Shown here: piece by piece, positions 565-54,140 of the stretch
How positions within the stretch are numbered: the first letter of the stretch is position 1
Layout of the letters: each line of letters starts with the position of its first letter
Origin: Escherichia phage SP15
Strand: one strand, 5' to 3'
Length of the DNA stretch: 64,000 nucleotides
Sequence record: AP019559
Notes under the pieces: model-generated
What the model saw: the letters and a program-made list of their open reading frames with translations, nothing else
Told to the model about the DNA's origin: nothing
Databases searched by the model: none
Program-made: the position numbers and the translations under genes

Positions 565-685
565 CATTCTAGACAGGACTCGAACCTGTTATCACTTGTG
601 CGGACTTACGAGAACCATTCTTTCACTCGAATCGAACGAGCTTCTGCCCTAGCCAAGCTGGTTTCCCCATCAACCACGCTAGAAT
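565..685 (-). ncRNA. atypical tRNA-like RNA, about 121 nt, with two T-arm-like hairpins
   Basis: Perfect 7-bp terminal helix AUUCUAG/CUAGAAU, 3' T-arm ACAGG-UUCGAGU-CCUGU, internal hairpin GCUCG-UUCGAUU-CGAGU; too long for a canonical tRNA, no clean anticodon arm, no encoded CCA. Confidence 0.35.
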
Positions 686-807
686 GTTTGATTGTTTTCA
701 GTGCAAGAGTCCGAGTCTTGGACACGACCGCTTCGCAAGTACATAGGCAGCTTATCATGAGTCAGCACTTCCGAATTGCTAGCCCCGTGTTCTGCACTGA
801 AATTTTA

Positions 808-1155
808 TTAGTTTAACCGTAAAGTATTATCTACTTCACCATTAATTGTTCGGCATTCCTCTGGGATTGCTGGTGTAGCCTTGTATTCCCACCACTCAGC
901 ACCATCATATTCCCCACGTTCTAGCCAAGTTCCATCGGCAAACCATACATTACCATAAAGTAATTGTCCACCGTATCCAGAATCATATTCAAAGTCTAGG
1001 TTATTAAGAAACCCCTCAATGTCTTCTTCTGTATAACCTAAAGGTAATACCCAGACTTTTTTGTCCCCATAATACCCAAATTCTATTTTAATACACTTAA
1101 CTTTAGAATTGGTATTTTTTAAGGCGAGTAACAGCTCTTCTTTAGCATTACGCAT
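808..1155 (-). CDS. hypothetical protein
   Basis: 115-aa ORF between tRNA genes. Confidence 0.5.
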   Translation of the reverse strand: MRNAKEELLLALKNTNSKVKCIKIEFGYYGDKKVWVLPLGYTEEDIEGFLNNLDFEYDSGYGGQLLYGNVWFADGTWLERGEYDGAEWWEYKATPAIPEECRTINGEVDNTLRLN

Positions 1156-1180
1156 AGTATATTCTCATACTGAATTAAGT

Positions 1181-1257
1181 TGGCGCGACCGATGGGATTT
1201 GAACCCACATTCTCTCCCGTGACAGGGGAGTACCATTACCAAGCCAGCCCCGGTCGC
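1181..1257 (-). tRNA. tRNA-Asp (anticodon GUC)
   Basis: Acceptor GCGACCG/CGGUCGC, anticodon stem CUCCC/GGGAG, loop CUGUCAC, T-loop UUCAAAU, encoded CCA. Confidence 0.7.
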
Positions 1258-1266
1258 ATAATTCAT

Positions 1267-1452
1267 TTACTCAGCTTTGAGTTTTTCAATAGCTGCATTA
1301 AGTTCTTTAAGAAACTCTTTTCGTACATTAAGACGATTGAGACTTACTAGTATATCGTGTTTAAGTTCTTCGATGTATTTCTTTTCAACTTCAATATTGT
1401 TGATAGTGCTATCACGATGAACTTCTAGCTGCGCAATTACATTCTTGGACAT
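1267..1452 (-). CDS. hypothetical protein (coiled-coil-like)
   Basis: 61-aa ORF with GAGGAAAC RBS. Confidence 0.4.
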   Translation of the reverse strand: MSKNVIAQLEVHRDSTINNIEVEKKYIEELKHDILVSLNRLNVRKEFLKELNAAIEKLKAE

Positions 1453-1554
1453 GCTTGTTTCCTCAGTTATTAATGAAAATGGTATCTGTGGCTGAATTCG
1501 ATGTCAGCAATGATAGCTGGTTGGCTACCGGTTTACTTAACTCTACACAGAATT

Positions 1555-1637
1555 TGGCGGGCCGTGTAGGATTCGAACCTACGTTGTCTTTCGACATGGA
1601 TTAACAGTCCACCGCCAAACCGCTTGGCTAACGACCC
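1555..1637 (-). tRNA. tRNA-Asn (anticodon GUU) with unusually long 13-nt variable region
   Basis: Acceptor GGGUCGU/ACGGCCC (one G-U), D-stem GCCA/UGGC, anticodon stem GUGGA/UCCAU, loop CUGUUAA, variable GUCGAAAGACAAC, T-arm GUAGG-UUCGAAU-CCUAC, CCA. Confidence 0.6.
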
Positions 1638-1789
1638 TAAATTTATATTGCTGACTAGGATTTTCACCTAGACGGAGTTAGCACCGTAGCGTGTAGCGGC
1701 ATACCTCTCCAAACCGTGCCTCATCTTTCAATTACGGAGACAGTGTTCCTACGCGTGCCTGAATTGATTCAACAATTCTTCCAGCAAAT

Positions 1790-1865
1790 TGGACGACCGC
1801 ATGAGATTTGAACTCACATAAAAAGGATTTGCAATCCTTCGCCTAAGCCCTTCAGCCAACGGTCG
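1790..1865 (-). tRNA. tRNA-Cys (anticodon GCA)
   Basis: Acceptor CGACCGU/GCGGUCG, anticodon stem AAGGA/UCCUU, loop UUGCAAA, T-arm GUGAG-UUCAAAU-CUCAU, CCA. Confidence 0.65.
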
Positions 1866-1934
1866 GTTTATCTTGTTCTGTCATGTTGCTTCTCCAGTTC
1901 AATTTATGTAATTATTATACAGAACTTTTGGAAA

Positions 1935-2207
1935 CTAAGCAACTACATTTTTTAAGAATTTGATGCCTTTCTTTTTCTTCTTATATTTCCACGTTAATGG
2001 ATTCTGTCGATTATGAACGCTTGAGATCTTTGTCTCGTCAAAGTTCTTCAATATCATGTAATCACAGGATAATTGTTCTAGTAGAATGTGATCACCGTCA
2101 AAAGCGTATACATAAGGCTGTTGACTAACACGATAATGATAGACTTTGTTAATTCTACGTTTCAGCGACTTATCAGCGCAGTAAATAAAGAAGTTTTCAG
2201 GATGCAT
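1935..2207 (-). CDS. hypothetical protein
   Basis: ORF track 1935..2222 begins at TTG; internal ATG at 2207 follows AAGGAG with 6-nt spacing. Confidence 0.45.
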   Translation of the reverse strand: MHPENFFIYCADKSLKRRINKVYHYRVSQQPYVYAFDGDHILLEQLSCDYMILKNFDETKISSVHNRQNPLTWKYKKKKKGIKFLKNVVA

Positions 2208-2224
2208 CAGCAGCTCCTTCAATT

Positions 2225-2299
2225 TGGTGCACCCTGTTCGTATCGAACGAACCTCTCAAGCTCTTCAGGCAAGCGCTAATCCATCTCAGCTAAAGGTGC
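2225..2299 (-). tRNA. tRNA-like element, possible pseudo-tRNA (anticodon arm does not fold)
   Basis: Good 7-bp acceptor GCACCUU/AGGGUGC, T-arm GUUCG-UUCGAUA-CGAAC and CCA, D-stem GCUG/UAGC, but no 5-bp anticodon stem found. Confidence 0.35.
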
Positions 2300-2305
2300 A
2301 AATTT

Positions 2306-2382
2306 TGGCAAACCTACTAGGACTCGAACCTAGACCGTACGGTTTTGGAGACCGACATGCTGTCCAGTAACACTCTAGGAAT
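2306..2382 (-). tRNA. tRNA-Trp candidate (anticodon CCA), acceptor stem with two U-U mismatches
   Basis: Anticodon stem UCGGU/ACCGU, loop CUCCAAA, T-arm CUAGG-UUCGAGU-CCUAG, CCA; acceptor AUUCCUA/UAGGUUU imperfect. Confidence 0.5.
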
Positions 2383-2390
2383 GCAGAAAT

Positions 2391-2467
2391 TGGCGTCCTG
2401 TGCGGGGATCGAACCCGCAAATCCTACCTTGAAAGGGTAGTGACTTTACCAGTTTGTCTAACAGGAC
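2391..2467 (-). tRNA. tRNA-Glu (anticodon UUC)
   Basis: Acceptor GUCCUGU/ACAGGAC, anticodon stem CUACC/GGUAG, loop CUUUCAA, T-arm GCGGG-UUCGAUC-CCCGC, CCA. Confidence 0.7.
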
Positions 2468-2474
2468 TTAAATT

Positions 2475-2565
2475 TGGTGTTGGATGATGGAGTCGAACCA
2501 CCCGAGACCCTTCCGAGTCGGCAGATTTACAGTCTGCTTCGCTACCTCTACGATACTAATCCAAC
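2475..2565 (-). tRNA. tRNA-Tyr (anticodon GUA), type II with long variable arm
   Basis: Acceptor GUUGGAU/AUCCAAC, anticodon stem GCAGA/UCUGC, loop CUGUAAA, long variable arm, T-arm GGUGG-UUCGACU-CCAUC, CCA. Confidence 0.7.
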
Positions 2566-2695
2566 ATATTTAGAAGTATTCAAAAATTCTCATTTAAACA
2601 CTTTTAAATATGTTTTCAAATTAGGTAACTATTATACCAAGTTTTAAGGCACTGAGCAAGTCAAATTTTAAAGAACTTGCTCAGTGCTATATTAG

Positions 2696-2971
2696 TTAGT
2701 CGAACTTAGGAGTGACAGTTAAGGAGAACGGAAGTTCGAAAACTTCTTCACCCTCATTACTAACGGTAACTACACGACCTTTAAGTTCAGACATTAAAAT
2801 ATCAATATCAGCTTTTGCATCTGGAGCCATACCAGCTTCAACACATTTAGCTTTAACTTCCGGCAGAAGTTCGACATCGTAGAAATAAAGCCATTCAATC
2901 TCACCTTCCCAGCCTTCCCAGGATTTACAGATTGCACTTTCAATACCAGTTGCTACAACACGATTTTGCAT
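2696..2971 (-). CDS. hypothetical protein
   Basis: 91-aa ORF, GGAG RBS. Confidence 0.5.
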   Translation of the reverse strand: MQNRVVATGIESAICKSWEGWEGEIEWLYFYDVELLPEVKAKCVEAGMAPDAKADIDILMSELKGRVVTVSNEGEEVFELPFSLTVTPKFD

Positions 2972-3061
2972 TCGTTAACTCCTTCATCAATTTATACAAC
3001 TATTATATCAGAAATTTAAAGCAAAAGGCAAGTACATTTTTAAAAATTCTGTTTGGAGGAG

Positions 3062-3268
3062 CTAAACTCCAGATTCTTCAGCTAAGTCTAGGCTAATAAG
3101 AGTTATAGCCATAATTGCTGCACCGTGTTCTTTTTCTCCGGTGTTTTTAGCAGAGTCTATAATAGTCTTAATCTGTTCGTAATAGCCTTTTACTTCTTGT
3201 TCAATACCTGCCTCGGCTATCATGCCTTTAGTCATGATTCGTTGCATAGTAATTTCACGGTTAGCCAT
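3062..3268 (-). CDS. hypothetical protein
   Basis: 68-aa ORF, GGAGA RBS, start overlaps stop of upstream small ORF (TAATG-type coupling). Confidence 0.45.
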   Translation of the reverse strand: MANREITMQRIMTKGMIAEAGIEQEVKGYYEQIKTIIDSAKNTGEKEHGAAIMAITLISLDLAEESGV

Positions 3269-3428
3269 GATGTTTCTCCAGCTTCATTTTTAATAGTTTA
3301 CAAATGAAATCAACGTCTTCATCTGTACCTAGATCTCTATCTTCAAGAGTTGCCTTGAAGTTTTTAGTCAATTCCATGAGGATAACTTCTCTAGAACGAC
3401 GTGTTGGCGGAGGTGGATGTCTATACAT
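3261..3428 (-). CDS. small hypothetical protein (55 aa, Pro-rich N-terminus)
   Basis: Not in ORF track (below 60 aa); AAGGAA RBS 5 nt before ATG; translationally coupled to 3062..3268. Confidence 0.3.
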   Translation of the reverse strand: MYRHPPPPTRRSREVILMELTKNFKATLEDRDLGTDEDVDFICKLLKMKLEKHHG

Positions 3429-3443
3429 CTTATTTCCTTAGTT

Positions 3444-3520
3444 TGGTAGGGGTGGTGGGATTCGAACCCACAAAACCTGAATTTTAAGTCCAGTACCTAT
3501 GCCAATTCGATTACACCCCC
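3444..3520 (-). tRNA. tRNA with anticodon UAA (Leu-type anticodon but short variable loop)
   Basis: Acceptor GGGGGUG/CACCCCU, anticodon stem CUGGA/UUCAG, loop CUUAAAA, T-arm GUGGG-UUCGAAU-CCCAC, CCA; D-stem weak. Confidence 0.55.
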
Positions 3521-3527
3521 GTGTAGT

Positions 3528-3716
3528 TTAGTCAATTACTTTTGAGGCTTCAAGGTAGTCGATATAGTGTATGTTTTCTACCGTAATCATATAATCTGTC
3601 ACTTTATCCATAGCTTGGGCTTCAGAGGTAGCTCTGGCTAACCTATATCCTTTTTTATATTCATCCGGGTATTCTCTATCTTGGATAAACACAACATAAA
3701 CTATATATAGATCCAT
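3528..3716 (-). CDS. hypothetical protein
   Basis: 62-aa ORF. Confidence 0.4.
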   Translation of the reverse strand: MDLYIVYVVFIQDREYPDEYKKGYRLARATSEAQAMDKVTDYMITVENIHYIDYLEASKVID

Positions 3717-3725
3717 TTGTGACCT

Positions 3726-3803
3726 CTATTTAATTTGGTGGCTCCCCGAGGATTCGAACCTACGTACCTTCCGGTTATGAGCCGGGTGCTCATACCATAT
3801 GAG
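3726..3803 (-). tRNA. tRNA with anticodon CAU (Met/Ile type), weak T-stem
   Basis: Acceptor GGUUCUC/GGGAGCC, D-arm GCUC-AUAUGGUAU-GAGC, anticodon loop CUCAUAA, T-loop UUCGAAU but T-stem only 3 clean bp, CCA. Confidence 0.5.
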
Positions 3804-3809
3804 CTTGAG

Positions 3810-3898
3810 AACCAGAATTTGGCGGAAGAAGCGGGAATCGAACCCACAAGGCTATATTTCAAACCGACAGATTAGCAATCTGCTGCAATACCGTTATG
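3810..3898 (-). tRNA. tRNA-Ser (anticodon GCU), type II
   Basis: Acceptor GGAAGAA/UUCUUCC, anticodon stem GCAGA/UCUGU, loop UUGCUAA, long variable arm, T-loop UUCGAUU, CCA. Confidence 0.7.
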
Positions 3899-3929
3899 CT
3901 ATTCTTCCGAATTTATAAGATATATTATA

Positions 3930-4448
3930 TTAGAAATTTAGCTTCATAGCAAGAAAATTTTTCAAGTTTTCGGTAGACATCTCATCCACATCTACGGGAG
4001 AAACAAAGCCGTTTAATTTTCTAGCAAATTTTTCACCCGCAGGATCATTATCTCCGACAGCTACCAATTTAAAAGGTAGTAATTTCAGTTGCTTTAATAA
4101 CGCTTTTCCTGGAGAAGAACCCAACATTGCTAGGGCTGGATAACCAGCATTATGTAACGCAACTGCCTTAAATACAGATTCAGCAATCAATACTACTTTT
4201 TCATCTCCATTGAGAGTTTCTAGTCCCCATACACACTGGGTAGTAGAATAAGTAAAGTATTTAGCTTCAAAGGGGCACTTACCATGACCTTTTGGAGCAG
4301 AAGGATTATAAGTTTGATAGCCCCTCAACATCCCAGAGAAGTCATACAACGGGACTGTTAGCCATCCTTCCGGACTTAACCAGCAATGATATTTATCTGT
4401 ATCAAATCCTCTAGATAAGAGGTGCTGTGTTAGCTCATCAACATTCAT
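3930..4448 (-). CDS. stand-alone Toprim-domain protein (DnaG-like catalytic core)
   Basis: Motifs VVLIAESVFKAVALHNAGYPALAMLG and VAVGDNDPAGEKFARKL resemble the DnaG Toprim E...DxD core; start moved to ATG at 4448 (AGAGGA RBS), track extension reads through the promoter. Confidence 0.5.
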   Translation of the reverse strand: MNVDELTQHLLSRGFDTDKYHCWLSPEGWLTVPLYDFSGMLRGYQTYNPSAPKGHGKCPFEAKYFTYSTTQCVWGLETLNGDEKVVLIAESVFKAVALHNAGYPALAMLGSSPGKALLKQLKLLPFKLVAVGDNDPAGEKFARKLNGFVSPVDVDEMSTENLKNFLAMKLNF

Positions 4449-4623
4449 ATTTGGTTCCTCTTTCAAATTTATAGATATATTATACAGAGAATTTAGCATT
4501 CAAGCAATCAAATTTTTTAACTTTTTAGAGGAAAATCATAGGGCACTTAAGGATAGCAGATAAGTGGTGAGGACCAAAATTTGTGACCCCACTAAAAATT
4601 CAGGGGCAATTTTTAAAGACCCC

Positions 4624-8365: not shown

Positions 8366-8809
8366 TTAATTAAATTCACCAGCAATCTGAGCAGCAGTAC
8401 CACCATCATAACGCCCAGGAAATTCTTCCTTAATCGCTTTCATCAGCATACCTTTTGTAATTCCAGGGTTTAGCTTAACTAATTCTGCAAAGTATTTACG
8501 AATCTCAGTATCAGATAACTGAGGGGGCAGATACTCCTGCAACCACTTATTTAGAATGTACTCATACTGAGCGGACTGCAAGCTATAACTATCAAGATCT
8601 TGACCATGAAGTTTAGCTTTCATCTGGTTAATGCTTTTTAGTTGAGCTTTGAGATAAGACACAAATTGTTCAGAAGTGATGAAATCTTTATTAATACGCT
8701 GAAGATCCCCGATTATGGTCTGATAGCTTTTAGCGACTTCTTTATCAGAACCATTAAACTTAGAATCCTGCAAAGCTCTACGCAAAACATCTAAAATATT
8801 CTCTTCCAT
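8366..8809 (-). CDS. GatB/YqeY-domain protein
   Basis: C-terminal ITKGMLMKAIKEEFPGRYDGGTAAQIAGEF matches the YqeY family signature. Confidence 0.6.
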   Translation of the reverse strand: MEENILDVLRRALQDSKFNGSDKEVAKSYQTIIGDLQRINKDFITSEQFVSYLKAQLKSINQMKAKLHGQDLDSYSLQSAQYEYILNKWLQEYLPPQLSDTEIRKYFAELVKLNPGITKGMLMKAIKEEFPGRYDGGTAAQIAGEFN

Positions 8810-26061: not shown

Positions 26062-26514
26062 ATGTCGCTCACACAACAAGAACTTTTAGATAATTTCCGA
26101 TATGAAGATGGAAAATTATTTAGAACCACAGGAAGAAATGCAGGCAAGGAATGTTGTGTTTCAACGGGAAATGGGTATTATCGTATTTCTCTAGGTAGTA
26201 AAACTATGCTCCGACACAGAGCCATCTTCTTAATGCATCATGGTTATCTCCCTGATTTAGTAGATCATGAGAATACTATAAAAGGTGATGATCGTATTGA
26301 AAATCTTAGAGAGCAGACAGTATCCGGTAATCTAAGAAATATCAAATATAAGAAAGGAATGCATGTTTACCCTTCTGGTAGTAAGAACTGGCAAGTAGTA
26401 TTTACTATTAACCGTAAACGTATAGTTAAAGGAACATATGACAACTATGAGGTTGCATGTTCTATGGCCAAGATGTTTAGAGGTCAATTATACGGTAGGG
26501 AATCAATCCAGTAA
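26062..26514 (+). CDS. HNH homing endonuclease (HNH_3 plus AP2-like domain)
   Basis: HRAIFLMHHGYLPDLVDHENTIKGDDRIENLRE; GGAGG RBS before ATG 26062. Confidence 0.65.
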   Translation: MSLTQQELLDNFRYEDGKLFRTTGRNAGKECCVSTGNGYYRISLGSKTMLRHRAIFLMHHGYLPDLVDHENTIKGDDRIENLREQTVSGNLRNIKYKKGMHVYPSGSKNWQVVFTINRKRIVKGTYDNYEVACSMAKMFRGQLYGRESIQ

Positions 26515-27049
26515 AATTTCATTTGCAAGGGAGTATTATTTTATAGTATAATATTCCCATAAATGAGAGATATTAGTAAAAATTGATTTTGCTAATTTTT
26601 CTTGTTTACAATCCGCGATACGGAACAGTTAGGCTGCCCCATTAAGGGTTGTTTTAACTGTTACGTGTTAGTTTTTAAGCAAATAATTAATAGAATACTT
26701 AGCGATCTGCGTCCCGTAGGAACCCTGGTAAGGCCTCGAAGCAACCTAGATAGAGGTGGTTGTGAAGTGAGACGGGAGGAGTGAAAAACTCCGAGACGTG
26801 ATTCTGTAAGTTATATTGCATCTAGTATGAGCTAGTATATGAAGCATTAGGTGAGCAAATCTGGCTTAGCGGCCATCCTCAAGGATTTGTGCGGTATAGC
26901 AAAGCAGCAGCGCAGCGTGAAAGTGGAAGTTGCCACCCCACTTCAGTATTTGCGATTAATTTGTTGAGAAATTGACAGTAACAGTTGTTCTATTCTTTCT
27001 GAATAGTCCTAAAGAAAACTTATTTCATTTCCAACACAGGAGTATTGTT

Positions 27050-35436: not shown

Positions 35437-36909
35437 ATGACCTTGTTTAACGTGCAAGCTGTAGTGTTGAAGATGCTTCTAGCTTCCGAACAGAAGCAAA
35501 TAGCATTGGAAACATTCTCAAAACTGCATAAAGATCATTTTAATGACGCTTTCTCCTCAATTTACCAAGCCGTCCAGAATTATTATAAAAAATATAACAC
35601 AATGCCGTCCATTGACGCACTGATGCTTGAGGCTAATAGGAACGCCCGCCTTTCTCAAGCTCTAGTCGTTTTAGCTAACACTCAAATTCCAGAAGTTAGC
35701 ATGGAACAGGCACTTGAAGTCCTAGAAGCCGAGTATACACAGGATTTATTCCTGAAGCTTCTAGAAACAGACGTGCTTCAAGATTTAACAATGCTGGATC
35801 AGGGAGAAATTCTTAACCGAGTTGCCTCCCTTCACTTAAAATTAGAAGAGAAAGTAACGAATACTGGAAAAGTATTCAACGCAGATAACATGCGTATTTT
35901 CCAGAGAGAAGAAGATACCAAACTGAACTTAATCGCTCTTGGTATCTGTAATGAGTTCGACGCTCAAATTGGTTTAGCTCGCACAGAAACGTTACTGCTT
36001 GGTGGTTGGCGTGGTACTGGTAAATCCATTATCTGTTCAAACATACAGGTTCAGCAATATTTGAATGGGGATATTGCTCCATACTTCTCAATTGAGATGA
36101 AAGAACATGAAGTATTTAGACGTAATCTAGCCATGTTAGCTGGTGTATCCGCACTAGCAATGCGTAATAATACTCTAGAAGGCGCAGCTCTGTTGAGATT
36201 AGCCAGAACTAGAGCTAGGATGTTTAATGGTGGTGAAGAGCTTTTCGATAACTTCGTTAAACAGTACACAATGGCTAAGATGAGTGATTTCTACGATATG
36301 GAAAGTAAGCTAATAGAAGGGTATGAACTACATACTCCTATGATTATTGTTTATGATCCTGAGCTGTCTATTACAACAGTTGACGTAGAATTAAATAAAT
36401 TAGTTGCTAGATATGGGGATAAAGTTACAGTAGCTTTACTGGACTATATTAACCAAACCCGACTTCCAGATTCTAAAACCATTGATATGTATGACTGGAA
36501 AGAACAGATGGTTGTTAGCTCGTCTTTCAAATCTATCTGCCAGAAACATAACGTGGCTGGCGTAGCTCCTTACCAGATCGATCAAGATGGTAGAACACGT
36601 ATGTCAAAAGGGATTCTTGATTCCGCAGACATGGCTGCTAATCTTAATGCTGCAAAAGCTGATAATGGTCAAGGTGCTATTATGTTTGACTTCGTTAAGA
36701 CTCGTTCTTCTGATAGCGTGAAGTTTATGCCTAAAATGAACTGGGAAACCCTGCGGATGGATAATACTACCAACCTAGCAATGGAAGATATATCTCAAAT
36801 GGAAGCTGAGTTCGTTATCCCTATTGAGAAGGATAAGCCGGCTCAATCTAAACGTGCTAAGAAAGACAAAGCTGAAAATTCAACAGGTGAACAGGCCAGC
36901 GATATATGA
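35437..36909 (+). CDS. DnaB-like replicative helicase
   Basis: RecA-fold Walker A GGWRGTGKS and Walker B-like block; start uncertain (ATG 35437 or TTG 35443) because the track start lies in the upstream terminator hairpin. Confidence 0.65.
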   Translation: MTLFNVQAVVLKMLLASEQKQIALETFSKLHKDHFNDAFSSIYQAVQNYYKKYNTMPSIDALMLEANRNARLSQALVVLANTQIPEVSMEQALEVLEAEYTQDLFLKLLETDVLQDLTMLDQGEILNRVASLHLKLEEKVTNTGKVFNADNMRIFQREEDTKLNLIALGICNEFDAQIGLARTETLLLGGWRGTGKSIICSNIQVQQYLNGDIAPYFSIEMKEHEVFRRNLAMLAGVSALAMRNNTLEGAALLRLARTRARMFNGGEELFDNFVKQYTMAKMSDFYDMESKLIEGYELHTPMIIVYDPELSITTVDVELNKLVARYGDKVTVALLDYINQTRLPDSKTIDMYDWKEQMVVSSSFKSICQKHNVAGVAPYQIDQDGRTRMSKGILDSADMAANLNAAKADNGQGAIMFDFVKTRSSDSVKFMPKMNWETLRMDNTTNLAMEDISQMEAEFVIPIEKDKPAQSKRAKKDKAENSTGEQASDI

Positions 36910-37439
36910 TAACACAGGAAAGGCTAAAAGAGTTATTTGATTACTCCCCAGAAACTGGGGAGTTTACTAGAAAAGTATCTAGAGGTAATCAGAAAGCTGG
37001 TAGTATAATAACCAGAAAAGACTCTAACGGTTATATAATTATTGGTATAGATGGCAAGGGTTACAAAGCCCATCGGATGGCTTTTCTATTTATGGAAAAT
37101 ACATTGCCGGAAAAAGTAGACCATGTAAACAGAATACCTTTTGATAATAGGTGGTGTAATCTAAGAGACGCCACAGCTCAGGAAAATAGTAGAAATAAAA
37201 CCGCATGTAGTAAGTCTGGATATTTGGGAGTTGCTTGGGATATCGAAAAACAAAGATGGAGAGTTCAAGTAAGAGACTCTAATAGCACTCTTAAAAATGG
37301 TGGCAGATTTAAGTATGAAGAGCTAGAGCTAGCTGTAAATTCAGCAAATATATTAAGGACTAAGTTACATGGAGAACGTGCTGTTATAGAAATTTTTGAT
37401 ACATCCAATTATCCTTCACTGGAGGAGTTAAATTCATGA
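36906..37439 (+). CDS. HNH homing endonuclease (HNH_3 plus AP2-like domain)
   Basis: YKAHRMAFLFMENTLPEKVDHVNRIPFDNRWCNLR; paralogous to 26062..26514. Confidence 0.65.
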   Translation: MITQERLKELFDYSPETGEFTRKVSRGNQKAGSIITRKDSNGYIIIGIDGKGYKAHRMAFLFMENTLPEKVDHVNRIPFDNRWCNLRDATAQENSRNKTACSKSGYLGVAWDIEKQRWRVQVRDSNSTLKNGGRFKYEELELAVNSANILRTKLHGERAVIEIFDTSNYPSLEELNS

Positions 37440-49149: not shown

Positions 49150-50898
49150 TTACTGCACTAGGTTTGCTCTTAATTGCTTGAGTTCTTCCTCTAAGTCTTC
49201 AACCCTTTTAATAAGATCCTGCACAACATGCATAGTATCAAGAAGCATTGGAGTTGTATCTAATTCCTTTTGCTCCTGTTCTACTCCGTCATCATTATAG
49301 AATCTTCTAGTCTTTACATAGAGTGGCTCTATAGTCTCTACTTGCTGTGCAATAACCCCACGTCGGATACGAGATTTTTCATCGTTATTATATATAAAGG
49401 ACTGGAATTCTAATCCTTTTAATACCTCGATGGACTTAGTTGCATCTATAGCTTTAATATCATGCTTTAAACGAGAATCAGATATAGCATTTAACTGCAG
49501 AGTATACGTTGCTGCGCCATTGGGCCACCAAGAATAGAAATAAATACTATTATTGTTCGGTTGAATTTTTAAACGTACACCATATCTGTTATCCGCGTCT
49601 CCCGATACGTGCCAGCAAGAATCAGCAAAGGAACCTAAGTCATTATGAATTAATCCAAAATGTGCAGATGTTTTATACCCCGCATTAGAATACTGGGAAC
49701 CACTCAAAATACTGTTAAAAGCGTAATTTGTTCCAATAGCCTGTTCTTCTGTACTAAATGTACCTTTAACAAGACCTGTTTCACTCCAAGCCATCATAGT
49801 CCCATAGCGGGCGCTATATCTATCAGAGTTTAATGTACCTGTGTCATCAAAGGCAAGGTCTTTTGTCACCCCTTTTGTCTTGTTGTATACAGACAGAATC
49901 GCATAATAAAGGCCATCCATGTACGCATCGCAACGAAGGCCAGCATCAGCTTCAACAACGGTGCCGATTTTGTATTGCGCCTTTACCTGCCCAGAGTATG
50001 CTCTTACTCCAGAACCTGGGCGAACAGCATCACCATTGATCACACTCCAAGAGGTATTCGCAGCAACAAATCCACCAGATGCACGAATCACCCAGACGCC
50101 GACAAAGTTTCGTGTAAGGATTTCGTCATTTGATGCCCCGTAGATCGGGCTTGAGCGTGACGCATCAATCTCAAGGGTGTTGTAGCGCCCAGATATTGAA
50201 ATTGCACCCGTCATTGGGATTGCATCACCTGCCGCAGCAGGGTATAGATCATTACTTGTTCTAAATGCACCTTGATTGATATCGCTGAATACCTGAGCAT
50301 ATGACGAGCCAGAATAACTAGCAATACGCCCATAGATATTAGGCGCAGCGGATTCAAAAACACGCCCGTTAGCGTCGGACATACCACCATCTCCACGGCC
50401 ATAAAGAGCACGTATTGATCCCTCCTGCACCCCATTCTTATCTGGAACACGAAAAGTTGTTGCTCCGTCACCATTAGAGTATTTGCCACGCTGGAATTTA
50501 TCAGCTAACCATACCGAATCCTCTATAACACCAACCATTTGAGCGTACGCCCAAAGCTCCGGCCAGTCGGCTCTATTAAGAAGTTGTCCATCAGAAACCA
50601 CTTCGTACGGTTGGATATACGCACGACTATCTCGAAGGTGGAAATCACCAACCCCGTAATTCATAACGCCGTTCATAGTAGGACCGACTGTGCCAGTATT
50701 AATCTTATTCTCCACCCAACGTTTAGTTGCAGCGTCATAGTCTCTCACAGGATCCCCCGCAAGAGGGGTAGACCCAATAGGACGTACATTTAGCCATGCT
50801 GCTGCACGGTCCGCAAGATCGGATAAGTTATTACTTTTATCCATCTTTTCATCTTTAAGTTTTGTAATGTCCCGAGGGATATTAGTATAAGTAGTCAT
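49150..50898 (-). CDS. tail fibre protein with C-terminal intramolecular chaperone domain (LtfB-like receptor-binding fibre)
   Basis: C-terminal S74-type chaperone signature (SDSRLKHDI...GLEF...GVIAQQVE) and coiled-coil end; GAGGTG RBS. Confidence 0.65.
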   Translation of the reverse strand: MTTYTNIPRDITKLKDEKMDKSNNLSDLADRAAAWLNVRPIGSTPLAGDPVRDYDAATKRWVENKINTGTVGPTMNGVMNYGVGDFHLRDSRAYIQPYEVVSDGQLLNRADWPELWAYAQMVGVIEDSVWLADKFQRGKYSNGDGATTFRVPDKNGVQEGSIRALYGRGDGGMSDANGRVFESAAPNIYGRIASYSGSSYAQVFSDINQGAFRTSNDLYPAAAGDAIPMTGAISISGRYNTLEIDASRSSPIYGASNDEILTRNFVGVWVIRASGGFVAANTSWSVINGDAVRPGSGVRAYSGQVKAQYKIGTVVEADAGLRCDAYMDGLYYAILSVYNKTKGVTKDLAFDDTGTLNSDRYSARYGTMMAWSETGLVKGTFSTEEQAIGTNYAFNSILSGSQYSNAGYKTSAHFGLIHNDLGSFADSCWHVSGDADNRYGVRLKIQPNNNSIYFYSWWPNGAATYTLQLNAISDSRLKHDIKAIDATKSIEVLKGLEFQSFIYNNDEKSRIRRGVIAQQVETIEPLYVKTRRFYNDDGVEQEQKELDTTPMLLDTMHVVQDLIKRVEDLEEELKQLRANLVQ

Positions 50899-50908
50899 TA
50901 ATCACCTC

Positions 50909-51175
50909 TTATGCCCAGTTACGTACACGGGGATTCTTAATAATAAATTGTTCAAGATTTGATAAGTCCACATCGTCCCCTATTATTCTTATGTTTATAT
51001 AATACCCCTCTTTGCCAATGACAACTGGAGTCTTACTTTTAGGGTCATCTACTAGGAGGACAAAACCAATTTCATCTACAAACACTTTACCATAGTTTGT
51101 CTTAAGCCACTCACTATCAATGACAACATCCCGATAATGTTTTTCGTCTTTAAATTGCAAATTAATATCTTTCAT
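50909..51175 (-). CDS. hypothetical protein inside tail-fibre locus
   Basis: 88 aa, GAGGGAGAAAG RBS, start overlaps ltfA stop (TAAAATG). Confidence 0.5.
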   Translation of the reverse strand: MKDINLQFKDEKHYRDVVIDSEWLKTNYGKVFVDEIGFVLLVDDPKSKTPVVIGKEGYYINIRIIGDDVDLSNLEQFIIKNPRVRNWA

Positions 51176-52639
51176 TTTAAACTTTCTCCCTCATTTGATT
51201 ATCCGTTAATACTCGATTCCATATTCTAAGGTTACGAATATGACCGTACAATTTTGACGGATCAGTTGGTCTTCCACCTATTTCCACTAGCGAGTCCGAG
51301 TCCGTTCCTTTCCATGTAAAACCGTGTGAGGTCCCACCTTTATTCCCATTAACAAACGATGTGACATCCCCATTACCACTAAAAATAAAACCAAATATAT
51401 GTGGAGAAAATTTATTTTCAAACGAATAACCTCTAGACAACGTAGCTGATTCATCCTCATTTAGTACATACGTGTAAGGTGTCACGGAGATTATGTCAAA
51501 TTCCGCAATAAATGCTTTTCCTCCTACATTGTATTGATTATTATCAATTATCATTGGGTATATATTATTTAATTGAAAGCTATCCCAGTTAACGCTCACT
51601 TCAGCAAGGAATGAAATATTCGTCCCCGAGAAATTATTTCTTGCAGGTATAGTAACATAATCCAGAGTCCTTGTTGCAGGCGTGCTTCCCGTAATAATGA
51701 AGGAGGATGCACAAAAGCCCTTTTCAAATTGCGGAGTACAAAATGATATTGTATCCCCAACTTGCACAGGTTGATCATTATTTCGACAATAATTTACAGA
51801 TCCAATAGAACTACCTCCACGTTCTACAAATTTACACATAGCTTCAACTTTCAACCATCCGTTGTCTTCTCTATATATTCTATGTGTTATAGTCCCTCTC
51901 CCTTCTACTACAGAAGAAACTTCGCCGGTTTCGCAATTTATGAAAGATCTAGCGCCGAGAATAAGACCTCCATCCTCACCTACTAAATAAAATTGTGGGG
52001 TGATATAGATATCCAAGTTTGCCTTTACTCGTATAGATAAAGAAACGTATTCATTTTGCTGACAGTTGATTGCATTTACTGTTTCACAATAAAATAATGA
52101 AGGATACTCACCTTGTGAATTTTCGTTTGCTGTTGCGGTTGCATATGCAAAACCATACTTATCAATATTATAAGTAACATCACTACGGTATTTATCTGTA
52201 TTTAATGAAGCGGGGTCATTACTGAAAGTAATGTGATTTGTCCGCTGGCCTTCAATTAAGAGTCCTTGCTTTTCAAATCTAGGTTCATCGATATTAGCAA
52301 TACAAAATTCACCATGCTTATTTATATATGTTGCGTTTGATGCACGCGAGAAACTAACAACCTTATCAGAAGGCATTGTAATAACATCTTCACCAACTGT
52401 TATTTTCTTATAGCCTGGTGAATAACCTGCAAGCATATCAAGCGAGTCATTAAATGGAATCCATACGTCAGGGAATGGTTGAAGATCCGGAGCCCTGTTA
52501 GCTGCAACTTCCGCACGGTCTGCTTCTGTTTTTGCACGGTCTGCTTCTGCTTTAGAGCTGTTTGCACTACCAGCAGCATTGCTAGCTTGTTGCCCGGCCT
52601 CAATAGCACTATTACCAGCTTGTGTAGCAGAAGCAGCAG

Positions 52640-52870
52640 CTTGGTTTTTTAAAGCTGTTGTATCAGATACCGCGCTATCCTTAATACCTTGTGTATCCGT
52701 TTTTAATTGCTCAACATCTGCTTTTAAAGTTGTTATCTCGGATACCGAGCTATTTTTAATGGCCTGGGTATCAGATTTTAACTGTTCTACATCTGCTTTT
52801 AAAGCTGTTGTCTCTGTTACAGCACTATTTTTAATGGACTGGGTATCAGATTTTAACTGTTCGACATCTG
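52640..52870. repeat. three in-frame 66-bp tandem repeats encoding 22-aa fibre shaft repeats
   Basis: Protein repeats KADVEQLKSDTQ.IKNS.VS..T.L x3 in ltfA. Confidence 0.7.
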
Positions 52871-53023
52871 ATTTAAGTCCTTGAATAGCAGCTACAGATT
52901 GGCTGGCAGAAGTTGCAGATCCCGCAGCATTAGTTTCACTAGCCTTAGCTTTTGTTTCCGAGGTTTTTGCATTGGTTTCAGAGATTTTTGCCGCAGATGC
53001 CGATGCAGCAGCTTGCCCAGAAA

Positions 53024-53211
53024 ATATTTCCGCCTCATTCCTAAAACCGCTAGAATCAGCCGCTGATTGAGCTGCATTAGTCTCACTTGCCTTTGCGTTA
53101 CCCTCGCTAAGTTTTGCATATTTCCGCCTCATTCCTAAAACCGCTAGAATCAGCCGCTGATTGAGCTGCATTAGTCTCACTTGCCTTTGCGTTACCCTCG
53201 CTAAGTTTTGC
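53024..53211. repeat. perfect 94-bp direct tandem duplication (2 copies) inside ltfA
   Basis: Units 53024-53117 and 53118-53211 are identical; unit length is not a multiple of 3. Confidence 0.9.
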
Positions 53212-53717
53212 ATCAGCCGCTGATTGAGCTGCATTAGTCTCACTTGCCTTTGCGTTACCCTCGCTAAGTTTTGCAGCAGTAGCTGATGCGTCAGCGTTAG
53301 TTTCACTAGTCTTTGCATTAGTTTCACTAGCCTTTGCGTTAGTTTCACTAGTTTTTGCGTTAGTCTCAGATATTTTTGCAGCCGCCGCTGATTCTGCAGA
53401 TCTATCCGCGGATGCAGCAGATTGAGTAGCAGATGTAGCGGATTGAGTAGCAGAAGTTTCAGAAGCTCCAGCAGAAATAGCAGCTTCCTGTTCAGAGTTC
53501 TTAGCGTTAAGTTCCGAAGTCTTAGCAGCTATCTCAGAATCTTTTGCAGCTGCAGCAGACTTAGCTGCTGCCTCAATAGAAGATACTAACTCACTTGCAG
53601 TAATAGAACTAATAGAGTTACCAAGAGTTACTGTATATCTAGGAAATTTACTCGCAGTAGCCTTAGTATCATCAATATTTAATATCTGTTGTACAATAAT
53701 TTTAGTAGTTACTGCCA

Positions 53718-54140
53718 TTATTTAGTTACCCCATCACTGATAAATACTTTACCCTCCATTATACGAAAGGAGCTAATTGCAGATCCTATAACATCTCTAG
53801 TCATAATTATATCATAGTATCCTGCGAATCGCTGACGAGGATTATACTTATCTCTATCTTTAGATGCTTTAGCTCCTATATTTTCCACGGATTCTACGGG
53901 TAAACTTATAGCTACAGCTCCTTGAGCAGCATCAATAATATTAGTAGTAAAGGATGCTAATATCTCCGCATTCTCATCTAGGCTACTTTTTATAGTGCCC
54001 CTTAAAGAATACCCAGTTAAGTTAACGGGGGTATTTGTAGGTGGATAAGCACTATCATCAACGTCTAAGAACTGCATCATTAGACCATATGGTACATTTT
54101 CGTCTATTACTAAATCTATAACTCTATTTTCAGTACTCAT
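53718..54140 (-). CDS. tail collar protein (T5 p132-like)
   Basis: 140 aa at the position of p132 between pb4 and ltf. Confidence 0.6.

What the first reader, a model, noticed from the sequence alone, without database searches (positions are those of the whole stretch)
53024..53274. Perfect 94-bp tandem duplication frameshifts the L-shaped tail fibre gene ltfA
Two identical 94-bp units (53024-53117 and 53118-53211) sit next to a 63-bp partial copy (53212-53274). Because 94 is not divisible by 3, the fibre reading frame coming from 53718 hits a stop at 53107-53109 (protein ends ...SSGFRNEAEICKT), while the downstream ORF continues the same protein (AKLSEGNAKASETNAAQSAADSSGFRNEAEIFSGQ...) in a frame offset by 1. 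Deleting one unit restores a single ORF of about 815 aa. The 100 percent identity of the units suggests a recent event: either a genuine loss-of-function mutation of the fibre (L-shaped fibres are dispensable for T5 in the laboratory), a heterogeneous population, or an assembly artifact.
Basis: seen in the sequence. Interest (0 to 1): 0.75.

Follow-up and report, generated by a model that had tools for sequence, protein, structure and literature searches.

The report
Untrimmed assembly overlap splits tail-fibre gene
The perfect 94-bp duplication that breaks this T5-like phage's side tail-fibre gene is really in the sequence, but it is most likely a leftover overlap from joining the ends of a circular assembly contig, not a mutation in the phage.

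Summary
Window 53024-53117 and 53118-53211 are identical 94-bp units next to a natural 63-bp repeat. The minus-strand fibre gene stops at 53107-53109 after 203 aa, and deleting one unit gives an 815-aa ORF colinear with intact homologues.

The duplication is probably not biological (about 0.8), for these reasons:
- ltfA is the only frame-broken gene among about 75 genes compared with phage Lindwurm.
- Two other deposited T5-like genomes carry the same kind of lesion in the same repeat-rich stretch of ltfA: I14 (103 bp) and WP85 (127 bp). Both are perfect two-copy duplications, and removing one copy restores the gene.
- Four records from four groups are linearised inside this same stretch, and their two ends overlap exactly: PH204 111 bp, AZ23 111 bp, PK8 141 bp, phA11 66 bp. 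This is the signature of a circular contig whose overlap was never trimmed.
- In three of those terminal overlaps (phA11 not tested) and all three internal duplications, one edge sits exactly on the boundary of an internal exact repeat.

Rotating such a contig without trimming produces exactly what is seen here. A genuine loss-of-function duplication remains possible (about 0.15), because LTF-less mutants do arise readily on rough hosts. Only reads or PCR can settle it. Interest is low.

The parts
53118..53211 (-). 94-bp unit, first copy in gene direction. It consists of the 63-bp repeat R (AKLSEGNAKASETNAAQSAAD) plus 31 nt T (SSGFRNEAEI..).
53024..53117 (-). 94-bp unit, second copy, 100% identical to the first. 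It is read out of frame by the upstream ORF and in the correct downstream frame by the 3' part. One of the two copies is the presumed untrimmed contig overlap.
53105..53135 (+). Novel junction between the two units (T|R in gene direction, GAAATAT|GCAAAAC). It is unique in the window and absent from the public viral and metagenome contig collections.
53212..53274 (-). Natural in-frame 63-bp (21-aa) repeat copy R1. Relatives carry one copy (AKFV33) or two (APCEc03, PH204). Together with the next copy it forms a 64-nt exact repeat, and its boundary coincides with one edge of the 94-bp unit.
53107..53718 (-). 5' ORF of the split ltfA, 203 aa. It holds the LtfC-binding N-terminus and the start of the Ala/Ser/Thr-rich repeat shaft, and ends at TAG 53107-53109.
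51177..53102 (-). 3' part of ltfA in the +1 frame, 641 aa: shaft repeats plus a C-terminal Laminin_G_3 / ConA-like domain.
52647..52897 (-). Array of 75-bp (25-aa) in-frame repeats inside ltfA. All strong tandem repeats of the 64-kb window lie in ltfA 52647-53368.
53294..53379 (-). 21-bp (7-aa, AKxSETN) in-frame repeats inside ltfA.
53718..54140 (-). ltfC, the collar protein that attaches the lateral fibres (140 aa, PF23926). It overlaps the ltfA start.
50909..51175 (-). Conserved 88-aa protein between the two fibre genes (phrog_1361, function unknown).
49150..50898 (-). Second lateral fibre gene (LtfB-like, 582 aa) with a C-terminal Peptidase_S74 chaperone domain.

Best explanation
The second 94-bp unit is most likely an assembly artefact.

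Proposed origin:
1. T5-like genomes assemble from short reads as a 'circular' contig whose two ends repeat the same k-mer-length stretch.
2. In this phage group the contig tends to open inside the repeat-rich 5' third of ltfA, which is the only strongly tandem-repetitive locus in the region. One edge of the overlap sits on the boundary of an internal exact repeat, that is, at a branch point of the assembly graph.
3. If such a contig is then rotated to the conventional T5 orientation by cut-and-paste without trimming, the two copies of the overlap end up head to tail inside the gene.
4. Here the overlap is 94 nt, which is 1 mod 3, so the gene appears frameshifted.

On this reading the real phage has an intact 815-aa LtfA with the coding-strand structure X-R-R-T-Y.

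Shown: the anatomy, the parallels in other records, and the restoration of the ORF. Inferred: that this genome was assembled and rotated in that way.
For: - Removing one unit gives an 815-aa ORF colinear residue for residue with the intact 815-aa protein of phiAPCEc03, and with AKFV33 (784 aa) and Lindwurm (809 aa).
- ltfA is the only frame-broken gene among about 75 Lindwurm CDS compared with the window by tblastn, so the sequence is otherwise clean.
- Two other deposited genomes have a perfect 2.0-copy duplication in the same part of ltfA: vB_EcoS_I14, 103 bp at gene nt 755-960, and WP85, 127 bp at nt 379-632. The window's is 94 bp at nt 506-695. Removing one copy restores 790-aa and 820-aa ORFs.
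- Four 'complete genome' records from four countries are linearised inside the same stretch and their ends overlap exactly: PH204 111 bp (ltfA nt 397-507), AZ23 111 bp (nt 471-581), PK8 141 bp (nt 397-537), phA11 66 bp (about nt 788-853).
- By coordinates, three more records (AZ21, phC17, phC11) end in the repeat stretch, and a partial contig (S.Ent 1-35-3) ends in or near ltfA. That makes about 7 of about 43 complete records in a stretch that is about 0.7% of the genome.
- Shared anatomy (phA11 was not included in this test). In the three other terminal overlaps one edge of the overlap lies exactly on the boundary of a maximal internal exact repeat (20, 74 and 42 nt). The three internal duplications show the same: the window's unit can start at nt 507, the first base of the second 64-nt repeat copy; I14 has both edges on a 28-nt repeat; WP85 starts on a 47-nt repeat.
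- The other edge of the window unit has only chance-level repeats, as expected for a fixed-length overlap.
- The periods 94, 103 and 127 are not the in-frame repeat spacings (63, 75, 21), so homologous misalignment of the natural repeats does not explain them.
- All strong tandem repeats of the window lie in ltfA.
- All 22 reference T5-like loci that were held in full have an intact ltfA. No other type of ltfA lesion was seen in them.
Against: - No reads are available, so nothing here is direct.
- 94 is even, whereas SPAdes-type overlaps are odd. However, phA11's 66-bp overlap shows that even lengths occur, and k-1 overlaps or overlap-layout assemblers would give them (my own knowledge).
- The junction has 2 nt of extra identity (AT). 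This has about a 1/16 chance under an artefact and is common in real microhomology-mediated duplications.
- Real perfect duplications of about 100 bp do occur in this gene: OSYSP has an in-frame 108-bp one with 6-nt junction homology that VEc33 lacks.
- Spontaneous LTF-less mutants reached about 30% of clones of phage DT571/2 on E. coli C600 (PMC4728585), so a real knockout would not be surprising.
- I could not show why the graphs break at repeats shorter than k.
Confidence: 0.8

Rival explanations
1. This is a genuine spontaneous 94-bp tandem duplication, formed by illegitimate or microhomology-mediated slippage and fixed in the sequenced stock. It truncates LtfA after residue 199 (plus 4 foreign residues). 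The virion would keep the N-terminal stub in the LtfC collar but lose the receptor-binding part, and probably the LtfB branch as well. It would be an LTF-less, laboratory-adapted phage that still grows on rough hosts.
For: - The frameshift is unambiguous in the sequence.
- The junction has 2-nt microhomology.
- LTFs are dispensable on hosts without O-antigen. LTF-less clones reached about 30% in DT571/2 grown on C600, and ltf rearrangements were selected by passage (PMC4728585).
- LtfB is attached through LtfA (PMC10713586).
- A real perfect in-frame 108-bp duplication exists in OSYSP ltfA.
- The rest of the window has no frame breaks.
Against: - The same 'mutation type' would have to have arisen independently in three records, each time as a perfect two-copy duplication with an edge on an internal repeat boundary. 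That is exactly the anatomy of the proven terminal overlaps found at the same place.
- No point, small-indel or deletion knockouts of ltfA were seen among the relatives examined, although such lesions should outnumber 100-bp duplications.
- The period is not what misalignment of the natural repeats would give.
- The junction was found nowhere else.
Confidence: 0.13
2. The phage stock is a mixed population. It contains ltfA variants that differ in repeat copy number, and the assembler or consensus step picked up or chimerised a minority variant, or a library-PCR template-switch product.
For: - The 64-nt exact repeat R-R and the 21-bp and 75-bp arrays are prone to slippage and recombination. Relatives differ in copy number.
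- Such variants or chimeras would create graph branches exactly at repeat boundaries, which is where all the overlaps are anchored.
Against: - Copy-number variants of the natural repeats would be in frame (63, 75 or 21 nt) and would not create a T|R junction.
- This scenario explains why contigs open here rather than explaining the duplication itself.
- It cannot be tested without reads.
Confidence: 0.05
3. This is a programmed or tolerated +1 ribosomal frameshift. Lys-tRNA slips on A-AAA-C in TGC AAA ACT TAG, just before the stop, into GCA AAA CTT AGC. That would yield a full-length fibre with one extra 31-residue insert.
For: The +1 frame is open across the whole repeat region, and an AAAA run lies two codons before the TAG (my own reading of the sequence).
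Against: - Every close relative encodes the protein in a single frame, so nothing is conserved.
- There is no recognised stimulatory element.
- Slippage on four A's is inefficient (general knowledge).
Confidence: 0.02

Closest known systems
Untrimmed k-mer overlap at the ends of circular de Bruijn-graph contigs (for example the '127 bp artificial overlaps' of SPAdes contigs; Philipson et al. 2018, PMC5923482)
   Same: - Exactly two copies at 100% identity, with a length in the range of assembler word sizes.
- Removing one copy restores the gene.
- The location is where PH204, AZ23, PK8 and phA11 carry exactly such overlaps at their record ends.
   Different: Here the two copies are adjacent inside the sequence instead of at its two ends, which implies that the contig was rotated after assembly. 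The length is even (94), which is unlike SPAdes.
ltfA 'frameshifts' in Escherichia phage vB_EcoS_I14 (PP892525.1) and Salmonella phage WP85 (PV844355.1)
   Same: - Perfect two-copy duplications (103 and 127 bp, both 1 mod 3) in the same repeat region of the same gene, with an edge on an internal repeat boundary.
- The gene is split in the annotation.
   Different: The positions within the repeat region differ, as do the lengths. 103 and 127 are odd and typical assembler k values (my own knowledge).
Spontaneous LTF-less and ltf-rearranged mutants of T5-like phages DT57C, DT571/2 and DT530 (Golomidova et al. 2016, PMC4728585)
   Same: The same gene system (ltfC-ltfA-ltfB). Loss is tolerated or even favoured on rough K-12 hosts, and repeats in ltf are a mutation hot spot.
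   Different: The documented lesions were a 3-bp deletion (A198), ltfA-ltfB fusion deletions and an in-frame 19-aa repeat gain. None was an out-of-frame 94-bp duplication. Those mutants were verified experimentally; this one is not.
Frameshift in the side tail fibre gene stf of laboratory lambda PaPa (Hendrix and Duda 1992; my own knowledge, not checked here)
   Same: A laboratory phage lacks its accessory side fibres because a frameshift splits the fibre gene into two ORFs.
   Different: The lambda lesion is a single-base change confirmed genetically. Here the lesion is a large perfect duplication and is probably not in the phage.

Membership tests
Untrimmed circular-contig overlap (assembly artefact) | Exactly two adjacent copies, 100% identical, no third copy | tested here: met
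   TRF reports 2.0 copies with 100% matches. Exact comparison agrees.
Untrimmed circular-contig overlap (assembly artefact) | Length in the range of assembler word or overlap sizes | tested here: inconclusive
   94 nt lies within the range seen at record ends here (66, 111, 111, 141). It is even, so it is not a SPAdes k. The assembler used is unknown.
Untrimmed circular-contig overlap (assembly artefact) | Removing one copy restores a sequence colinear with relatives | tested here: met
   The restored 815-aa ORF is colinear with the 815-aa phiAPCEc03 protein.
Untrimmed circular-contig overlap (assembly artefact) | The site is one where independent assemblies of related genomes open their circular contig | tested here: met
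   PH204, AZ23, PK8 and phA11 have record ends with exact overlaps inside ltfA nt 397-853. Further records fall there by coordinates.
Untrimmed circular-contig overlap (assembly artefact) | Same fine anatomy as proven overlaps: one edge on the boundary of a maximal internal exact repeat | tested here: met
   The window unit can start at ltfA nt 507, the first base of the second 64-nt repeat copy. The three terminal overlaps tested (PK8, AZ23, PH204) and I14 and WP85 show the same.
Untrimmed circular-contig overlap (assembly artefact) | No sequencing reads span the copy|copy junction | not testable with these tools
   No reads are available. The junction 31-mer is absent from the viral and metagenome contig collections, which is only weakly informative.
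T5-like lateral tail fibre protein LtfA (first LTF gene) | N-terminus homologous to the LtfC-binding N-terminus of T5 Ltf / DT57C LtfA | tested here: met
   Residues 1-197 match phrog_5481 at 7e-73 and phrog_24369 (a 1396-position profile) at 9e-50. The alignment of the full proteins is nearly identical over the first ~100 residues with AKFV33, APCEc03 and Lindwurm. Structural role from PMC10713586.
T5-like lateral tail fibre protein LtfA (first LTF gene) | Gene order pb4 - ltfC - ltfA - (small ORF) - ltfB with an S74 chaperone | tested here: met
   Pfam finds PB4 domains, LtfC (PF23926) and Peptidase_S74 in the 582-aa protein. The order is the same as in AKFV33, APCEc03 and Lindwurm.
Genuine loss-of-function tandem duplication (LTF-less laboratory mutant) | Premature stop removing the receptor-binding part | tested here: met
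   There is a stop at 53107-53109 after 203 aa. This holds only at the level of the deposited sequence.
Genuine loss-of-function tandem duplication (LTF-less laboratory mutant) | Junction microhomology typical of slippage or illegitimate recombination | tested here: inconclusive
   Only 2 nt (AT). The in-frame OSYSP duplication, by comparison, has 6 nt.
Genuine loss-of-function tandem duplication (LTF-less laboratory mutant) | Present in the phage DNA, with an LTF-less phenotype | not testable with these tools
   This needs reads, PCR, electron microscopy or adsorption assays.
Programmed ribosomal frameshift | Two-frame organisation conserved in relatives | tested here: not met
   All 22 reference loci held in full, together with AKFV33, APCEc03 and Lindwurm, encode LtfA in one frame.

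The most novel reading that the evidence does not exclude
The duplication is real, and it is one instance of a recurrent and readily reversible switch. Out-of-frame tandem duplications in the repeat shaft of ltfA (window 94 bp, I14 103 bp, WP85 127 bp) would turn the lateral fibres off. Precise recombination between the two perfect copies would turn them back on. That would give T5-like phages a phase-variation-like way to shed O-antigen-binding fibres, and it would explain the unexpectedly high rate of LTF-less clones reported for DT571/2.
Probability: 0.07. Interest if true: 0.6.

Novelty: not a real feature. Interest (0 to 1): 0.12.

Why it matters
If the artefact reading is right, this phage has a normal 815-aa lateral fibre. 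The 'pseudogene' should be corrected, not interpreted as host-range loss or laboratory adaptation.

The practical point is wider:
- In T5-like phages, short-read assemblies tend to open inside the ltfA repeat region. Several public records carry untrimmed overlaps there, either at their ends or, after rotation, inside the gene.
- At least two other records (I14, WP85) therefore show a split ltfA that is probably false.
- Overlaps whose length is a multiple of three would hide as extra in-frame repeats.
- Anyone comparing receptor-binding proteins or predicting the host range of these therapeutic-candidate phages should check this locus against the reads.

If the duplication is real after all, it is an ordinary laboratory loss of a dispensable fibre.

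Tried and rejected
- Looked for the same phage or the same junction elsewhere. The junction 31-mer is absent from viral contigs and metagenome contigs.
- Exact look-ups of the 203-aa product, the LtfB-like protein, the 88-aa protein and pb4 (two alternative starts) found nothing. LtfC is on record only on a 1.4-kb Logan contig that stops at the ltfA start. No independent copy of this allele could therefore be examined.
- The window's phage is not in the phage collection. The best relatives are about 94-96% identical.
- Considered general poor sequence quality (homopolymer indels) as the cause. Rejected, because about 75 other genes align full-length in a single frame.
- Considered misalignment of the natural in-frame repeats as the origin. 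Rejected, because the period (94) is not a repeat spacing and the T|R junction is new.
- Considered mis-traversal of a de Bruijn graph loop. Rejected as such, because a graph cannot invent the junction k-mers. Cut-and-paste rotation can.
- Considered a programmed frameshift. Rejected, because there is no conservation.
- First treated the even length as an objection to the artefact. This was weakened by phA11's 66-bp terminal overlap.

Full report
**1.

- Window 53024-53117 and 53118-53211 are identical 94-bp units. 53212-53274 equals the last 63 nt of the unit, and the period-94 identity runs 2 nt further.
- The junction 31-mer occurs once in the window and never in shuffles.
- The gene lies on the minus strand. 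From the ATG at 53718 the frame runs 203 codons to TAG at 53107-53109 (...SSGFRNEAEICKT*). The same protein continues in the +1 frame to 51177.
- Deleting one unit gives a single 815-aa ORF.

**2. What the gene is**

- The window is a Tequintavirus (T5-like) genome, about 94-96% identical to Lindwurm, SelmaRatti, WP85 and AKFV33. The phage itself is not in the phage collection.
- On the minus strand the order is pb4 (PB4 domains), ltfC (PF23926), the split gene, a conserved 88-aa ORF, and a 582-aa fibre with a Peptidase_S74 chaperone.
- The N-terminal 197 residues match the T5 Ltf / DT57C LtfA N-terminus families. In DT57C that part is threaded into the LtfC collar, and LtfB hangs on LtfA (PMC10713586; PMC4728585).
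- The C-terminus is a Laminin_G_3-like domain. 'ltfA' is therefore a fair name for an AKFV33-type first LTF gene.

**3. The ancestral structure**

- AKFV33 (784 aa), phiAPCEc03 (815 aa) and Lindwurm (809 aa) all have an intact gene.
- The restored window protein is colinear with phiAPCEc03: two 21-aa repeats (R R) followed by SSGFRNEAEIFSGQ.
- On the coding strand the window reads X-R-R-T-R-T-Y, where R is 63 nt and T is 31 nt. The extra piece is R+T, and it creates a new T|R junction.
- The period (94) is not the spacing of any natural in-frame repeat (63, 75 or 21 nt). Misalignment of those repeats therefore does not explain it.

**4. Sequence quality**

tblastn of about 75 Lindwurm CDS against the window gives full-length, single-frame matches for every conserved gene except ltfA. 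A few small or mobile genes are absent or only partly matched. Random indel error is not the cause.

**5. The decisive comparison: internal duplications in other records**

- Two other deposited genomes have a split ltfA. In both, the cause is again a perfect two-copy duplication in the same repeat-rich part of the gene.
- I14 has 103 bp at gene nt 755-960 and WP85 has 127 bp at nt 379-632. The window's 94 bp lies at nt 506-695.
- Removing one copy restores 790-aa and 820-aa ORFs.

**6. The decisive comparison: records opened inside the gene**

- Several 'complete' records are linearised inside this very stretch, and their two ends overlap exactly.

| Record | Overlap | Position in ltfA |
|---|---|---|
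| PH204 | 111 bp | nt 397-507 |
| AZ23 | 111 bp | nt 471-581 |
| PK8 | 141 bp | nt 397-537 |
| phA11 | 66 bp | about nt 788-853 |

- By coordinates, AZ21, phC17 and phC11 also end in the repeat region, and a partial contig (S.Ent 1-35-3) ends in or near ltfA.
- That makes about 7 of about 43 complete records opening in about 0.7% of the genome, from four submitting groups.
- Exact end-to-end overlaps of this size are the known signature of circular contigs whose k-mer overlap was not trimmed (PMC5923482).

**7. Fine anatomy**

- Three of the terminal overlaps were tested (PK8, AZ23, PH204; phA11 was not). In each, one edge of the overlap lies exactly on the boundary of a maximal internal exact repeat (20, 74 and 42 nt).
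- The three internal duplications show the same:
  - the window unit can start at nt 507, the first base of the second copy of the 64-nt exact repeat;
  - I14 has both edges on a 28-nt repeat;
  - WP85 starts on a 47-nt repeat.
- The other edge of the window unit shows only chance-level repeats.
- All strong tandem repeats of the 64-kb window lie in ltfA. This gives a reason why assembly graphs branch, and why circular contigs open, at this locus.
- I infer, but cannot show, that minority copy-number variants or library chimeras create those branches.

**8. Conclusion**

- The simplest account is that a circular contig opening in ltfA was rotated to the T5 orientation without trimming its 94-nt overlap, so that the two copies now sit head to tail.
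- Because 94 is 1 mod 3, the gene looks frameshifted. I put this at about 0.8.

**9. What speaks for a real mutation**

- LTFs are dispensable on rough hosts. About 30% of DT571/2 clones grown on C600 had lost LTF function, and passage selected ltf rearrangements (PMC4728585).
- The junction has 2 nt of identity.
- 94 is even.
- A perfect, in-frame 108-bp duplication with 6-nt junction homology exists in OSYSP but not in VEc33, so duplications of this size do occur in the gene.

Against a real mutation:
- The same unusual lesion, with the same anatomy as proven artefacts, would have had to arise three times.
- No ordinary knockouts (nonsense, small indel, deletion) were seen in the 22 reference loci held in full.

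I give a real duplication about 0.13, a mixed-population or chimera origin about 0.05, and a frameshifting mechanism about 0.02. The last scores lowest because relatives use one frame.

**10. Limits**

There are no reads, and no independent copy of this allele was found. The verdict rests on comparison. Read mapping or a single PCR would settle it.

Noticed in passing
L006 (PP892525.1, vB_EcoS_I14) locus 1577-4052; L007 (PV844355.1, WP85) locus 578-3167: Both deposited genomes have ltfA split by a perfect two-copy duplication (103 bp and 127 bp). Removing one copy restores 790-aa and 820-aa ORFs. These are probably the same rotation artefact, and the annotations (several small CDS, or an N-terminally shortened CDS) are probably wrong.
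   Followed up: yes
OR492254.1 (PH204), LC788707.1 (AZ23), PV615398.1 (PK8), OQ680478.1 (phA11): record ends (L008-L013, L039, L040): These 'complete genome' records are cut open inside ltfA and carry exact terminal overlaps of 111, 111, 141 and 66 bp. ltfA is left unannotated or marked as partial, and the stated genome lengths are too long by the length of the overlap.
   Followed up: yes
L022 (IMGVR_UViG_2974601769, 110901 bp; same length as OSYSP MF402939) locus about 4322-4543, compared with L023 (108640 bp; same length as VEc33): There is a perfect in-frame 108-bp (36-aa) tandem duplication in ltfA with 6-nt junction homology (CGCTGT). It is absent from the close relative, and its edges do not lie on internal repeat boundaries. 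It looks like a genuine recent duplication.
   Followed up: partly
L006 record header (PP892525.1): vB_EcoS_I14 is filed under Ounavirinae; Felixounavirus, although its tail-fibre region is T5-like (Demerecviridae) and about 92% identical to this window. The taxonomy is probably mislabelled.
   Followed up: no
window 53149-53275: The two natural 63-bp repeat copies are 100% identical over 64 nt in this phage. The corresponding copies in phiAPCEc03 and PH204 have diverged (AKISETN... versus AKLSEGN...). This suggests recent gene conversion or a recent in-frame duplication in this lineage.
   Followed up: partly
window 36906-37433 and 26068-26580: HNH-endonuclease-like ORFs, one of them between the helicase and primase genes, have no counterpart at those positions in Lindwurm. 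They match Lindwurm HNH genes located elsewhere at 31-56% identity. They are probably mobile homing-endonuclease insertions.
   Followed up: no
window 49150-50898: The second lateral fibre (LtfB-like, with an S74 chaperone) is only 49% identical to its Lindwurm counterpart, while the flanking genes are 92-100% identical. This is a swapped receptor-binding module.
   Followed up: no
window 8369-8809: The homologue of a 184-aa Lindwurm hypothetical protein aligns only over residues 1-147. This could be C-terminal divergence or truncation. It was not examined.
   Followed up: no
PMC10713586, table footnote: The authors of the DT57C structure paper state that the reference T5 genome sequence probably contains a frameshift error in ltfC (gp135/136). 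This is another sequence-level error in the same fibre locus of this phage group.
   Followed up: no
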